A DNA stretch of 64,000 nucleotides, from the NCBI RefSeq assembly GCF_013315695.1, contig NZ_CP054353.1, one strand, 5' to 3'. The position numbers were made by a program, and so were the translations under genes. Numbering within the stretch: the first letter of the stretch is position 1; each line of letters begins with the position of its first letter. A model generated the notes under the pieces. It was not told where the DNA came from and ran no database searches. It was given only the letters and a program-made list of their open reading frames with translations. Below are positions 39,057 to 42,132 of the stretch, piece after piece. Origin of the DNA: Escherichia coli. Lineage in GTDB: Bacteria; Pseudomonadota; Gammaproteobacteria; Enterobacterales; Enterobacteriaceae.

Positions 39057-40457
39057 ATGAGCGTTGTGCCTGTAGCCGACGTACTCCAGGGCCGCGTAGC
39101 CGTTGACAGCGAAGTCACCGTGCGCGGATGGGTACGTACCCGCCGAGATTCAAAAGCTGGCATCTCCTTCCTCGCCGTTTATGACGGTTCCTGCTTTGAT
39201 CCTGTACAGGCTGTCATCAATAATTCTCTGCCCAATTACAATGAAGACGTCCTGCGTCTGACCACCGGCTGCTCGGTCATTGTGACGGGTAAAGTCGTGG
39301 CGTCGCCGGGCCAGGGGCAACAATTTGAAATTCAGGCCAGCAAGGTTGAAGTTGCTGGTTGGGTTGAAGATCCAGACACTTACCCGATGGCGGCAAAACG
39401 CCACAGCATTGAGTATCTGCGTGAAGTCGCTCACCTGCGTCCGCGCACAAACCTGATTGGTGCCGTCGCGCGCGTTCGCCATACGCTGGCGCAGGCGCTG
39501 CATCGCTTCTTTAACGAGCAGGGATTCTTCTGGGTTTCAACGCCACTGATTACTGCGTCTGATACCGAAGGGGCTGGCGAAATGTTCCGCGTTTCTACGC
39601 TGGATCTGGAAAACCTGCCGCGTAACGATCAGGGCAAAGTGGATTTCGACAAAGACTTCTTTGGTAAAGAGTCTTTCCTGACCGTATCTGGCCAGTTGAA
39701 CGGCGAAACCTACGCTTGCGCATTATCCAAAATTTATACCTTCGGCCCGACTTTCCGTGCTGAAAACTCCAACACCAGCCGTCACCTGGCGGAATTCTGG
39801 ATGCTGGAGCCGGAAGTGGCGTTTGCTAACCTGAACGATATCGCGGGTCTGGCTGAAGCCATGCTGAAATATGTCTTCAAAGCGGTTCTCGAAGAACGCG
39901 CTGACGACATGAAATTCTTCGCTGAACGCGTAGATAAAGATGCCGTTTCACGTCTGGAACGCTTCATTGAAGCCGATTTTGCGCAGGTGGATTACACCGA
40001 CGCAGTGACCATTCTCGAAAACTGCGGCAGGAAGTTTGAAAACCCTGTTTACTGGGGCGTTGATCTCTCTTCTGAGCATGAGCGTTATCTGGCGGAAGAA
40101 CACTTTAAAGCACCGGTAGTGGTTAAAAACTATCCGAAAGATATTAAAGCGTTCTATATGCGCCTTAACGAAGACGGTAAAACCGTTGCGGCTATGGACG
40201 TTCTGGCTCCGGGCATCGGTGAGATCATTGGTGGCTCTCAGCGTGAAGAACGCCTGGACGTGCTGGACGAGCGTATGCTGGAAATGGGCCTGAATAAAGA
40301 AGATTACTGGTGGTATCGCGATCTGCGTCGCTACGGTACTGTTCCGCATTCAGGTTTCGGTCTTGGTTTTGAACGCCTGATTGCTTACGTAACTGGTGTG
40401 CAAAACGTGCGTGATGTGATTCCGTTCCCACGTACTCCGCGTAACGCCAGCTTCTAA
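39057..40457 (+). CDS. asnS: Asparagine--tRNA ligase
   Basis: 466 aa from ATG 39057 ([13 protein letters not shown]...); class II aaRS. Confidence 0.95.
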
Positions 40458-40470
40458 TTTAGCGTCTTCA

Positions 40471-40498
40471 AGAGCCAGCGCCCGCTGGCTCTTTTTTT
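40471..40498 (+). terminator. asnS intrinsic terminator
   Basis: agagccagcgcccgctggctct hairpin followed by T7. Confidence 0.8.
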
Positions 40499-40608
40499 AT
40501 CCTTTCTGTCAAGTTATCTGTTTGTTAAGTCAAGCAATCTATTTGCAACCCCGCCATAACGATCATCCTGTTACGGAATATTACACTGCAACATTTGCGC
40601 ACAAAAAA

Positions 40609-40640
40609 TAATCCGCATTCTTATTGCGGATTAGTTTTTT
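40609..40640 (+). terminator. Second, orphan terminator-like hairpin in asnS-ompF intergenic region
   Basis: taatccgca-ttcttat-tgcggatta (9-bp perfect stem) followed by gttttttc and preceded by aaaaaa. Confidence 0.55.
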
Positions 40641-40849
40641 CTTAGCTGATAGCACAATTTTCATACTATTTTTTGGCGTTCTGGATGTCTGAACGAGGAT
40701 TTAGTGCCAGGTCGATAAAGTTTCCATCAGAAACAAAATTTCCTTTTAGTTAATTTAAATATAAGGAAATCATATAAATAGATAAAAATTGCTGTAAATA
40801 TCATCACGCTTCTATGGAAATATGACGGTGTTCACAAAGTTCCTTAAAT

Positions 40850-40910
40850 TTTACTTTTAGTTACATATTTTTTCTTTTTGAAACCAAATCTTTATCTTTG
40901 TAGCACTTTC
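40850..40910 (+). promoter_or_regulatory. OmpR binding sites F1-F2-F3 of the ompF promoter
   Basis: ttacttttagttacatattt / tttctttttgaaaccaaatc / tttatctttgtagcactttc tandem 20-bp elements match known ompF OmpR boxes. Confidence 0.7.
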
Positions 40911-40949
40911 ACGGTAGCGAAACGTTAGTTTGAATGGAAAGATGCCTGC

Positions 40950-41058
40950 AGACACATAAAGACACCAAACTCTCATCAATAGTTCCGTAAATTTTTATTG
41001 ACAGAACTTATTGACGGCAGTGGCAGGTGTCATAAAAAAACCATGAGGGTAATAAATA
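40950..41058 (+). promoter_or_regulatory. ompF 5' UTR (about 110 nt; includes MicF sRNA pairing region around RBS)
   Basis: Position inferred from OmpR box spacing; RBS gagggt before ATG 41059. Confidence 0.55.
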
Positions 41059-42132
41059 ATGATGAAGCGCAATATTCTGGCAGTGATCGTCCCTGCTCTG
41101 TTAGTAGCAGGTACTGCAAACGCTGCAGAAATCTATAACAAAGATGGCAACAAAGTAGATCTGTACGGTAAAGCTGTCGGTCTGCATTATTTTTCTAAAG
41201 ACAATGGTGTAAACAGTTACGGCGGAAACGGCGACAAAACTTATGCCCGTCTTGGTTTTAAAGGGGAAACACAAATCAATTCCGATCTGACCGGCTACGG
41301 TCAGTGGGAATATAACTTCCAGGGTAACAACTCTGAAGGCGCTGATGCCCAGAAAGGTAACAAAACTCGTCTGGCATTCGCAGGTCTGAAATTCGCTGAT
41401 GCGGGTTCTATCGACTACGGTCGTAACTACGGTGTGGTTTACGACGCACTGGGTTACACCGATATGCTGCCTGAGTTCGGCGGTGACACGGCATACAGCG
41501 ATGACTTCTTCGTTGGTCGTGTAGGCGGCGTTGCTACCTATCGTAACTCCAACTTCTTCGGTCTGGTTGACGGCCTGAACTTTGCCGTTCAGTACTTGGG
41601 CAAAAACGAACGTGCTGGTATTCCTGAGCGTTCCAACGGCGACGGCGTCGGTGGCTCTATCAGCTACGAATTCGAAGGCTTTGGTATCGTAGGTGCTTAC
41701 GGTGCAGCAGACCGTACCGACGCCCAGGAAGCCGAATTCCGCGGTCAGGGTAAAAAAGCTGAACAGTGGGCAACTGGTCTGAAGTATGACGCGAACAACA
41801 TCTACCTGGCAGCGAACTACGGTGAAACCCGTAACGCTACGCCAATTGAAGGCGGCTTCGCCAACAAAACGCAAGACGTTCTGTTAGTTGCGCAATACCA
41901 GTTCGATTTCGGTCTGCGTCCGTCCATCGCTTACACCAAATCTAAAGCGAAAGACGTAGAAGGTATCGGTGATGTTGATCTGGTGAACTACTTTGAAGTG
42001 GGCGCAACCTACTACTTCAACAAAAACATGTCCACCTATGTTGACTACATCATCAACCAGATCGATTCTGACAACAAACTGGGCGTAGGTTCAGACGACA
42101 CCGTTGCTGTGGGTATCGTTTACCAGTTCTAA
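41059..42132 (+). CDS. ompF: Outer membrane porin OmpF (non-K-12 loop allele)
   Basis: 357-aa precursor with signal peptide [22 protein letters not shown] and C-terminal ...GIVYQF; barrel segments match OmpF, loops differ from K-12 as I recall it. Confidence 0.93.

What the first reader, a model, noticed from the sequence alone, without database searches (positions are those of the whole stretch)
40499..40640. Orphan terminator-like hairpin and paired direct repeats between asnS and ompF
About 110 bp downstream of the asnS terminator there is a second strong intrinsic-terminator structure: a 9-bp perfect stem (taatccgca/tgcggatta) with a 7-nt loop, followed by gtttttt and preceded by an A-tract. 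Between the two terminators lie two 17-bp direct repeats (gtcaagttatctgtttg at 40508-40524 and gtcaagcaatctatttg at 40529-40545, 14/17 identical, 21 bp centre to centre). This could be the 3' end of a short unannotated transcript, a backup terminator insulating the ompF regulatory region, or a regulator-binding array; I know of no named feature here.
Basis: seen in the sequence. Interest (0 to 1): 0.4.

Follow-up and report, generated by a model that had tools for sequence, protein, structure and literature searches.

The report
Polymorphic terminator-like hairpin beside ompF's F4 operator
Between the E. coli genes asnS and ompF there is a real terminator-shaped DNA palindrome, but it is young, variable among strains and shows no mapped RNA ends, so it is an ordinary, probably minor transcription stop and not a new regulatory device.

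Summary
The hairpin (40609-40633) and the two 17-bp repeats (40508-24, 40529-45) are exactly as described.

The hairpin is symmetric: an A-run on one side and a T-run on the other give it terminator anatomy on both strands. It lies about 10 bp from the OmpR F4 operator of ompF (about 40570-40599), which sits between the repeats and the hairpin.

It is confined to Escherichia. The asnS terminator is kept, with compensated stems, in 27 of 27 taxa. The second hairpin is seen only in E. coli and, on the minus strand only, in E. albertii. Only 36% of 5,426 E. coli genomes carry the perfect stem, about 5% have lost the hairpin, and there is no covariation on either strand. A published Term-seq list shows no 3' end there.

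Published Cappable-seq data place a strong opposite-strand start at 40571, inside F4. With a Term-seq 3' end at 40398, this implies a roughly 174-nt RNA antisense to the asnS 3' end. That RNA contains both repeats and may be the old candidate 'C0240'.

The repeat cores (xTCAA, 20-21 bp apart) recur in five or six genera.

Best reading: a lineage-specific, dispensable bidirectional terminator or insulator. Confidence is moderate and interest low.

The parts
39057..40457 (+). asnS coding sequence (asparagine--tRNA ligase)
   Evidence: ORF list; RefSeq annotation under the BLAST match.
40470..40499 (+). asnS intrinsic terminator: 10-bp G+C-rich stem, 4-nt loop, T-run
   Evidence: -17.8 kcal/mol, z -4.55. 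Present in 27 of 27 Enterobacterales taxa with different, compensated stem sequences.
40508..40524 (.). Direct repeat 1 (gtcaagttatctgtttg). On the minus strand it is +48 to +64 of the opposite-strand RNA.
   Evidence: The GTCAA core recurs at the same offset from the asnS terminator in other genera.
40529..40545 (.). Direct repeat 2 (gtcaagcaatctatttg), 14 of 17 identical to repeat 1 at a 21-bp offset. It is +27 to +43 of the opposite-strand RNA.
40570..40599 (.). OmpR F4 distal operator of ompF (gttacggaatattacactgcaacatttgcg), about -380 to -350 from the ompF start
   Evidence: Position inferred. The ompF start is at window 40950. F4 is '260 bp upstream of F1-F2-F3' (PMC3050692). The -380/-350 limits are from my own memory of Huang, Schieberl and Igo 1994. 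The CTGTTAC..ATTTC block is conserved in long-spacer genera.
40577..40585 (-). Extended -10-like element TGTAATATT of the opposite-strand promoter, inside F4
   Evidence: Read from the sequence. It sits 6-7 nt upstream of the Cappable-seq start site.
40398..40571 (-). Inferred opposite-strand RNA of about 174 nt, from the start at 40571 to the 3' end at 40398. It contains both repeats and is antisense to the asnS terminator and the last 60 nt of asnS. It may be 'C0240'.
   Evidence: Cappable-seq start 986694(+) in U00096.2, score 74.5. Term-seq 3' end 987644(+) in U00096.3. The coordinate offset of 777 was checked against ompF and asnS coordinates. Array detection of an opposite-strand RNA between ompF and asnS. 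That the two ends belong to one RNA is inference.
40602..40608 (.). A-run (AAAAAAT on +), which is the U-run of the hairpin on the minus strand. It is conserved across genera.
   Evidence: The conservation may reflect the edge of the F4 OmpR site and not termination (inference).
40609..40633 (.). The hairpin: 9-bp perfect inverted repeat with a 7-nt loop, terminator-like on both strands. The 5' arm (on +) is polymorphic; the loop and 3' arm are fixed.
40634..40641 (+). GTTTTTTC tail, the U-run for the + strand. It is fixed in E. coli and degraded in every other genus.
40648..40659 (.). Conserved block GATAGCACAATT (function unknown)
   Evidence: Nearly invariant in 12 Enterobacteriaceae spacers.
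40675..40693 (.). Conserved block GGCGTTCTGGATGTCTGAA (function unknown)
40753..40784 (.). Conserved block ATTTAAATATAAGGAAATCATATAAATAGATA, about -197 to -166 of ompF; possibly the IHF site
   Evidence: Conserved in long- and short-spacer genera. The IHF assignment is from memory only and was not verified.
40850..40911 (+). OmpR sites F1-F3 (-100 to -40 of ompF)
   Evidence: Sequence. OmpR ChIP-exo peak at 986373-986432 in U00096.2, centred at -87.5.
40950..40950 (+). ompF transcription start (110-nt 5' UTR)
   Evidence: Start site 986315(-) in NC_000913.2, converted to window coordinates.

Best explanation
The hairpin is a young, Escherichia-specific palindrome with A- and T-runs on its two sides. 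It most likely acts as a modest bidirectional intrinsic terminator or insulator at the outer edge of the ompF distal control module, right next to the OmpR F4 operator.

On the window + strand it would stop the small amount of asnS transcription that escapes the strong asnS terminator, before that transcription enters the IHF/F1-F3/promoter region of ompF. On the window minus strand it would stop weak leftward transcripts that arise in the AT-rich ompF control region, before they run over F4 and the strong opposite-strand promoter embedded in F4.

It is not the 3' end of a conserved small RNA, and it is dispensable. Many strains carry weakened alleles and about 5% have lost the hairpin.

The two direct repeats are a separate feature. 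They are the E. coli form of a bipartite xTCAA...xTCAA motif, 20-21 bp apart, that follows the asnS terminator in several genera. In E. coli they lie in the transcribed 5' part of the opposite-strand RNA that starts at 40571.

Shown: the anatomy, the position relative to F4, the phylogenetic distribution, the polymorphism, and the published start and 3' end. Inferred: that termination actually occurs at the hairpin, and the insulator role.
For: - Canonical terminator anatomy on both strands, beyond chance.
- Hairpin-only energies are -11.9 (+) and -10.8 (-) kcal/mol for the window allele. In MG1655 an A-to-C change adds a C-G pair, giving -21 kcal/mol with the flanks.
- Other perfect 9-bp stems in the window include the asnS and ompF terminators.
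- The minus-strand hairpin stays at or below -10 kcal/mol in alleles V1 and V2 (74% of E. coli) and at -8.0 in E. albertii. There, three transitions give G.U pairs on the minus strand but mismatches on the + strand.
- The + strand hairpin stays at or below -9.7 kcal/mol in V1 and V3 (55%).
- Weak minus-strand start sites exist upstream of the hairpin, at window 40640, 40892 and 40920.
- Salmonella has a different orphan hairpin with a T-run in the same spacer, a hint that a second stop here arises repeatedly.
Against: - No 3' end is listed at the hairpin on either strand in the Term-seq tables of Adams et al. 2021. Those tables also lack the asnS terminator, so their sensitivity is limited.
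- There is no covariation. Paired cells are 84.8% (+) and 87.9% (-), no better than shuffled controls at 85.2% and 86.4%.
- All variation is in one arm, while the loop and the other arm are invariant.
- Only 36% of E. coli genomes have the perfect stem, and 4.7% carry an allele with essentially no hairpin.
- The structure is absent in Salmonella, Citrobacter, Klebsiella, Enterobacter, Cronobacter and others, although the sequence block is homologous.
- The asnS terminator is strong, so there is little read-through to stop.
- Known minus-strand starts upstream of the hairpin are weak. The strong one lies downstream of it.
Confidence: 0.4

Rival explanations
1. Incidental palindrome. The element under constraint is the DNA sequence of the right half and its flanks (GCACAAAAAAT ... 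TTCTTATTGCGGATTAG), as part of the ompF distal control block or of the upstream region of the opposite-strand promoter. The hairpin then sits at -38 to -62 of the start at 40571. The left arm merely drifted, or was copied by template switching within a quasi-palindrome, into complementarity in some E. coli lineages. Hairpin formation itself would have no function.
For: - The loop and 3' arm are invariant in E. coli and E. albertii and nearly so in Salmonella, Citrobacter and Phytobacter. The TTATTGCG core persists in Leclercia, Kluyvera and two Enterobacter lineages, where no hairpin can form.
- All polymorphism is in the 5' arm, with four common alleles.
- No covariation and no mapped 3' end.
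- The homologous block exists in all long-spacer genera together with F4.
Against: - A perfect 9-10-bp stem flanked by six A and six T is a very specific outcome for drift.
- The K-12 lineage has a further change that lengthens the stem.
- No protein or promoter function could be assigned to the conserved half.
- OmpR ChIP-exo reports only the F1-F3 peak.
Confidence: 0.33
2. Palindromic operator. The 9-7-9 inverted repeat is the binding site of a dimeric transcription factor that acts on ompF, or on the opposite-strand promoter 50 bp away.
For: The repeat has dyad symmetry with arms two helical turns apart, centre to centre. It lies inside a regulatory region next to F4 and is centred at about -50 of the strong minus-strand start.
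Against: - One half-site varies at three positions at high frequency within E. coli, while the other is fixed.
- The symmetry is absent in other genera.
- There is no second copy in the genome.
- I recognised no known consensus. This was by eye and from memory, not a database test.
Confidence: 0.1
3. The hairpin is the terminator of a discrete small RNA or small-ORF transcript. On the minus strand this could start at the promoter-like site 40798-40769, giving an RNA of about 155 nt that might be 'C0240'. On the + strand it could start after the asnS terminator.
For: - A promoter-like site (TTTACA, 18 nt, TATGAT; 10 of 12 matches) lies on the minus strand about 150 nt upstream of the hairpin.
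- Arrays detected an opposite-strand RNA, described as a putative small ORF, between ompF and asnS.
- The minus-strand hairpin is the better preserved of the two.
Against: - Cappable-seq lists no start between window 40892 and 40640 on that strand.
- One promoter-like hit is fewer than the 2.4 expected by chance.
- Rfam gives nothing above noise.
- The minus-strand ORF through the hairpin is 27 aa in the window but 18 aa in MG1655.
- No + strand promoter-like site lies between the two hairpins.
- The strong opposite-strand start lies downstream of the hairpin, so that RNA does not end there.
Confidence: 0.12

Closest known systems
Bidirectional intrinsic (Rho-independent) terminators, meaning a hairpin flanked by an A-run and a U-run, as described genome-wide in E. 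coli by full-length RNA profiling (named from my own knowledge of Ju, Li and Liu 2019)
   Same: Short stem-loop with an A-run on the 5' side and a T-run on the 3' side, so the complement is also a hairpin followed by a U-run. It lies in an intergenic region between transcription running in opposite directions.
   Different: It does not sit at the meeting point of two well-expressed convergent genes, because asnS has its own terminator 110 bp upstream. No 3' ends have been mapped. It is not conserved and is polymorphic. The stem is only 44% G+C.
The neighbouring asnS terminator (40470-40499), used as an internal control for a functional terminator
   Same: Same anatomy class and the same spacer.
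   Different: The asnS terminator is present in 27 of 27 taxa with compensatory stem changes, and its stem is invariant within E. coli. The second hairpin is found in Escherichia only, varies in one arm, and has no compensatory changes.
OmpR F4 distal operator and the F4 to F1-F3 repression loop of ompF
   Same: The hairpin lies within 10 bp of F4. The homologous sequence block occurs together with F4 in the long-spacer Enterobacteriaceae and is missing from short-spacer genera such as Yersinia, which lack F4.
   Different: The hairpin lies outside the reported F4 site. Neither the hairpin arms nor the repeats resemble the OmpR half-site, judged by eye. ChIP-exo reports only the F1-F3 peak.
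'C0240' (Tjaden et al. 2002), which is candidate 62 of Stead et al. 2011: an opposite-strand transcript between ompF and asnS
   Same: Same spacer and the same strand as the strong start at 40571 and the 3' end at 40398.
   Different: I could not obtain the coordinates of C0240, so the identity is unproven. That RNA, as reconstructed here, begins downstream of the hairpin and contains the repeats. The hairpin is not its terminator.

Membership tests
Intrinsic (Rho-independent) terminator | Stable stem-loop (stem of about 5-14 bp, loop of 3-8 nt) | tested here: met
   9-bp perfect stem with a 7-nt loop. Hairpin-only energy is -11.9 (+) and -10.8 (-) kcal/mol. z about -3.8 against shuffles.
Intrinsic (Rho-independent) terminator | U-rich tract immediately 3' of the stem | tested here: met
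   GUUUUUUC on the + strand and UUUUUUGU on the minus strand in the window. In MG1655 the minus-strand tail is GUUUUUGC.
Intrinsic (Rho-independent) terminator | RNA 3' ends map to the U-tract in vivo | tested here: inconclusive
   No 3' end between MG1655 987300 and 987599 on either strand in the Term-seq tables of Adams et al. 2021. Those tables also omit the asnS terminator.
Intrinsic (Rho-independent) terminator | Lies at the end of a defined transcription unit | tested here: inconclusive
   On the + strand it is 110 bp beyond the real asnS terminator, with no promoter-like site in between. On the minus strand only weak start sites lie upstream (scores 2.0-2.7, plus a suspect one at 40951), and the strong start lies downstream.
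Intrinsic (Rho-independent) terminator | Pairing maintained in evolution (compensatory change), as in the adjacent asnS terminator | tested here: not met
   No pair changes on both sides on the + strand, and one cell does on the minus strand. Percent paired equals the shuffled controls. The structure is absent outside Escherichia.
Bidirectional terminator between convergent transcripts | Symmetric hairpin with an A-run on the 5' side and a U-run on the 3' side | tested here: met
Bidirectional terminator between convergent transcripts | Convergent transcripts whose 3' ends overlap at the hairpin | tested here: not met
   The only mapped opposite-strand 3' end is at window 40398, inside asnS, and none is at the hairpin. 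asnS ends at its own terminator.
Small RNA gene (hairpin as its terminator) | Own promoter or start site at sRNA distance upstream of the hairpin, plus a conserved RNA or a family match | tested here: not met
   No Cappable-seq start between window 40892 and 40640 on the minus strand. The best Rfam hits score 22 bits or less against gathering thresholds of 41-376. No conserved structure.
OmpR operator (F4 extension or additional site) | OmpR-type 10-bp half-sites in phase, and OmpR occupancy | not testable with these tools
   ChIP-exo lists only the F1-F3 peak. Half-site resemblance of the conserved A-run (TTTTTGTGC/TTTTTGTAC on the minus strand) was judged only by eye.
Repetitive extragenic palindromes (REP/BIME and similar) | Many copies per genome | tested here: not met
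   Median of one place per genome, in 5,424 of 5,426 genomes.

The most novel reading that the evidence does not exclude
F4, the strong opposite-strand promoter embedded in it, and the adjacent hairpin may form one OmpR-sensitive module. RNA polymerase at the promoter for the 40571 start and OmpR-P at F4 would compete for the same DNA. Osmolarity would then set both ompF repression and the output of a roughly 174-nt RNA antisense to the 3' end and terminator of asnS. The hairpin would protect this switch from incoming transcription on both strands. The xTCAA repeats would be a conserved protein- or RNA-level element of that antisense RNA region. The allelic series of the hairpin would tune this in different E. 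coli lineages.
Probability: 0.1. Interest if true: 0.55.

Novelty: new member of a known kind. Interest (0 to 1): 0.25.

Why it matters
If the hairpin does terminate, it adds one unannotated, lineage-specific insulator to a textbook regulatory region. That is a small correction to the map.

Two by-products are more useful. First, a strong opposite-strand promoter appears to sit inside the OmpR F4 operator and to drive an unannotated RNA antisense to the asnS 3' end. That bears on how F4-mediated repression of ompF is read. Second, the hairpin's left arm carries four common alleles. These give a natural allelic series, with predicted hairpin energies from -12 to 0 kcal/mol, for testing whether the structure matters. 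This spacer is already used for host-source typing of E. coli.

Tried and rejected
- **Rfam.** A permissive search of 40300-41200 gave only noise: 22 bits or less, E of 1.2 or more.
- **Small protein.** The minus-strand ORF through the hairpin (27 aa) is cut to 18 aa in MG1655. The 13-codon ORF at the 5' end of the opposite-strand RNA appears absent in E. albertii, judged by eye. I rejected a coding role.
- **Repeated element.** There is one copy per genome.
- **Covariation.** I tested both strands and found none. The minus-strand bias seen in E. albertii and Phytobacter is therefore only suggestive.
- **Repeats as minus-strand -35 elements.** The TTGACT and TTGACA hexamers have no -10 at a workable spacing (by eye).
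- **Regulator for the repeats.** Pho-box, TorR-box, PhoP, ArcA, IHF and CytR resemblances are all partial and recalled from memory. I claim none.
- **Minus-strand start at 40951.** This Cappable-seq signal (score 22.9) abuts the ompF +1 on the other strand and has no -10. I treated it as a probable artefact of the very abundant ompF mRNA.
- **Literature not obtainable.** Tjaden 2002, Huang 1994, Slauch 1991 and Thomason 2015 were not held. The supplements of four other transcriptome papers were empty or uninformative. The Cappable-seq table for the MG1655 minus strand (window + strand) was cut off, so + strand starts in the spacer remain unknown.

Full report
**Locus and coordinates**

The window is E. 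coli. It is 100% identical to strain AR_0077 and 98% identical to K-12 MG1655 across the asnS-ompF spacer. asnS (39057-40457) and ompF (41059-42132) both read on the + strand and are separated by 601 bp.

Window position w corresponds to MG1655 (NC_000913.3) coordinate 1028042 - w, and the window minus strand is the MG1655 plus strand. I checked this on the asnS stop codon. I also checked it on the sequence printed with a Term-seq entry and on the published ompF start site. That start, 986315 in the older numbering (offset 777), falls at window 40950 with a 110-nt leader.

Yes. The hairpin TAATCCGCA / 7 nt / TGCGGATTA occupies 40609-40633, preceded by CACAAAAAA and followed by GTTTTTTC. It folds at about -14 kcal/mol on either strand with z about -3.8, and none of 200 shuffles fold as well. 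The consensus scan calls it terminator-like on both strands.

Perfect 9-bp stems occur at 11 places in the 64-kb window (20 raw hits, against 2.7 in resampled sequence), among them the asnS and ompF terminators.

The two 17-mers at 40508-24 and 40529-45 match at 14 of 17 positions with a 21-bp offset. A pair of this quality arises in 3.6% of resampled spacers, and the window holds six such pairs against 1.3 expected. The repeats are real but only modestly beyond chance on their own.

**What lies around it**

- F1-F3 occupy 40850-40911 (-100 to -40). This fits the OmpR ChIP-exo peak centred at -87.5.
- F4 is described as a weak OmpR-P site 260 bp upstream of F1-F2-F3 that loops to them to repress ompF, and as absent in Yersinia (PMC3050692).
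- The limits -380 to -350 are from my memory of Huang, Schieberl and Igo 1994, which I could not open.

On that placement the hairpin is at -342 to -318 and the repeats at -443 to -406 of ompF.

**Transcription of the opposite strand**

- Stead et al. 2011 report a transcript on the strand opposite to ompF and asnS in this spacer. They call it candidate 62 and equate it with 'C0240' of Tjaden et al. 2002.
- The Cappable-seq start-site table of Ettwiller et al. 2016 lists starts on the MG1655 plus strand. In window minus-strand coordinates these are 40951 (score 22.9), 40920 (2.0), 40892 (2.3), 40640 (2.7), 40571 (74.5), 40554 (1.9) and 40521 (1.6).
- The strong start at 40571 is an A lying 6-7 nt downstream of TGTAATATT, an extended -10-like element inside F4.
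- The only Term-seq 3' end near here in Adams et al. 2021 is 987644(+), which is window 40398 on the minus strand, inside asnS.

Together these imply an RNA of about 174 nt (40571 to 40398). It carries both direct repeats at +27 to +64 and is antisense to the asnS terminator and the last 60 nt of asnS. That the two ends belong to one molecule, and that it is C0240, are inferences.

The hairpin lies at -38 to -62 of this start, so it is not this RNA's terminator. The start at 40951 abuts the ompF +1 on the other strand and has no -10. I regard it as a likely artefact of the abundant ompF mRNA.

**Comparative evidence**

I fetched asnS loci from 80 species and four more Enterobacteriaceae. The asnS-porin arrangement is kept throughout Enterobacterales.

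The spacer comes in two sizes. It is about 600 bp in Enterobacteriaceae and about 300 bp in Pantoea, Erwinia, Pectobacterium, Brenneria, Serratia and Yersinia. In the short form, a conserved block (ATTAAATATAAGAAATTCATATAGATA) lies between the asnS stop codon and the asnS terminator. In E. coli the same block is at 40753-40784, so the extra roughly 300 bp is specific to the long form. That extra segment holds the relocated terminator, the repeats, F4, the hairpin and two further conserved blocks.

An alignment of 12 long spacers shows conserved islands at:
- the asnS terminator;
- CAACCCC;
- F4;
- GCACAAAAAATAA...TTATTGCGGATTAG;
- ATAGCACAAT;
- GGC.TC.GGA.G.C.AAA.

The hairpin region is therefore homologous across genera, but the ability to pair is not.

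| Taxon | Standard pairs out of 9, + / - strand |
|---|---|
| E. coli | 9 / 9 |
| E. albertii | 6 / 9 |
| Citrobacter | 8 / 7 |
| Phytobacter | 7 / 8 |
| Leclercia | 5 / 7 |
| Pseudocitrobacter, Kluyvera, three Enterobacter lineages | 2-4 / 1-6 |

Folding confirms a strong hairpin only in E. coli and a moderate one on the minus strand in E. albertii.

A uniform terminator scan of 27 taxa finds the asnS terminator in all 27, with different, compensated stems. It finds the second hairpin only in E. coli (both strands) and E. albertii (minus strand only), plus a weak 5-bp relic in Phytobacter.

A formal count on 11 alignable sequences shows no covariation. On the + strand 84.8% of cells pair, against 85.2% in shuffles. 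On the minus strand 87.9% pair, against 86.4% (91 of 500 shuffles reach the observed value). The apparent minus-strand bias is therefore suggestive only. In E. albertii it rests on three transitions that give G.U pairs on the minus strand and mismatches on the + strand.

The A-run 5' of the hairpin is well conserved, while the + strand T-run is not. However, the A-run abuts F4 and may be part of the OmpR site. Read on the minus strand it is TTTTTGTGC or TTTTTGTAC. This is my inference by eye.

**Variation within E. coli**

In eight Escherichia sequences every difference in the hairpin falls in the + strand 5' arm, and the loop, 3' arm and T-run are identical. Exact 30-nt searches of 5,426 complete genomes, with hairpin-only energies, give the following.

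| Allele (5' arm) | Genomes | Share | Energy, + / - strand (kcal/mol) |
|---|---|---|---|
| TAATCCGCA (perfect) | 1,950 | 36% | -11.9 / -10.8 |
| TAACCCGCA | 2,038 | 38% | -7.9 / -10.2 |
| TAATCTGCA | 1,038 | 19% | -9.7 / -4.6 |
| TAACCTGGA | 254 | 4.7% | -1.6 / 0 |

For comparison, E. albertii gives -2.5 / -8.0, Salmonella -3.9 / -5.0 and Citrobacter -3.1 / -2.3. A good minus-strand hairpin is thus present in 74% of E. coli and a good + strand hairpin in 55%. Neither is universal, and about 5% have none. This contrasts sharply with the invariant stem of the asnS terminator 110 bp away.

**The repeats**

Outside Escherichia the 17-mers are not conserved as such, but their cores are. GTCAA occurs in 6 of 11 spacer segments, against 0.6 expected.

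A pair of xTCA(A/G) words 20-21 bp apart follows the asnS terminator in Escherichia, Leclercia, two unnamed Enterobacter lineages and two Klebsiella species. In Klebsiella and Pseudocitrobacter a further xTCAA lies 16 bp downstream. The sequence between the cores has diverged, so this looks like constraint on a bipartite motif.

I could not assign a binding protein. The resemblances to Pho, Tor, PhoP, ArcA, IHF and CytR sites are partial and come from memory. In E. coli the motif is also transcribed, within the opposite-strand RNA.

**Interpretation**

- The anatomy argues that the palindrome can terminate transcription in either direction.
- The evolutionary and population data argue that it is recent, dispensable and not maintained as an RNA structure.
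- Its conserved half may be constrained at the DNA level.

I therefore rank a lineage-specific, modest bidirectional terminator or insulator at the edge of the ompF distal module first (0.40). An incidental palindrome within a conserved DNA element is a close second (0.33). A discrete small-RNA terminator (0.12) and a palindromic operator (0.10) follow.

'Backup terminator' is possible but unproven. 'Binding array' for the repeats gains some comparative support.

Nothing is annotated here in RefSeq, and Rfam has no family for it.

**Verdict**

This is an ordinary, unannotated member of a known class of structure, of low interest in itself. The more interesting item is collateral: a strong, unannotated antisense promoter embedded in the F4 operator.

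Noticed in passing
window 40398-40585, minus strand: Published Cappable-seq data give a strong start site (score 74.5) at 40571, inside the OmpR F4 operator, preceded by TGTAATATT. With the Term-seq 3' end at 40398, this implies an unannotated RNA of about 174 nt antisense to the asnS terminator and 3' coding end. OmpR-P at F4 and RNA polymerase at this promoter would occupy the same DNA.
   Followed up: partly
window 40458-41058; loci L002-L024, L034, L071, L088-L091: The asnS-ompF spacer has two forms: about 600 bp in Enterobacteriaceae and about 300 bp in Pantoea, Erwinia, Pectobacterium, Serratia and Yersinia. In the short form the asnS terminator lies between a conserved block (E. coli 40753-40784) and the OmpR F1-F3 sites. 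In the long form the terminator sits next to asnS, and about 300 bp including F4 lie in between.
   Followed up: partly
window 40648-40659 and 40675-40693: Two short blocks, GATAGCACAATT and GGCGTTCTGGATGTCTGAA, are conserved across a dozen Enterobacteriaceae genera in otherwise diverged spacer. Their function is unknown. The first resembles the TAGCAC core of OmpR site F3, judged by eye.
   Followed up: no
window 40609-40617: The + strand 5' arm of the hairpin is a polymorphism hot spot, with four common alleles among 5,426 E. coli genomes, while the loop and other arm are fixed. The asnS-ompF spacer is used elsewhere as a host- and niche-informative SNP marker (PMC5007776).
   Followed up: yes
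L088 4153-4170 (Salmonella enterica asnS-ompF spacer, positions 252-269): Salmonella lacks the E. coli hairpin but has a different orphan hairpin with a T-run (AATGGCTTGCCTGCCATT TTTTT) about 100 bp further towards ompF. It is also flanked by A on its 5' side.
   Followed up: partly
L024 5402-6187 (Superficieibacter electus): The spacer is 786 bp and holds two asnS-type terminator hairpins (GCCAGCT...GCTGGCT), at spacer positions 4-31 and 203-224. This suggests a local duplication or insertion.
   Followed up: no
window 40951, minus strand: A Cappable-seq start (score 22.9) lies on the strand opposite ompF, one base from the ompF +1, with no recognisable -10. It may be an artefact of the very abundant ompF mRNA or a divergent start.
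   Followed up: no
window 40727-40807, minus strand: A 26-codon ORF encodes a hydrophobic peptide with a basic tail (MMIFTAIFIYLYDFLIFKLTKRKFCF). It overlaps the conserved block at 40753-40784 and the only promoter-like hit on that strand. In E. albertii the frame looks interrupted, judged by eye.
   Followed up: no
L090 1864-2325 (Klebsiella variicola): An AsnC/Lrp-type regulator gene sits immediately upstream of asnS in Klebsiella variicola. It is absent at that place in E. coli.
   Followed up: no
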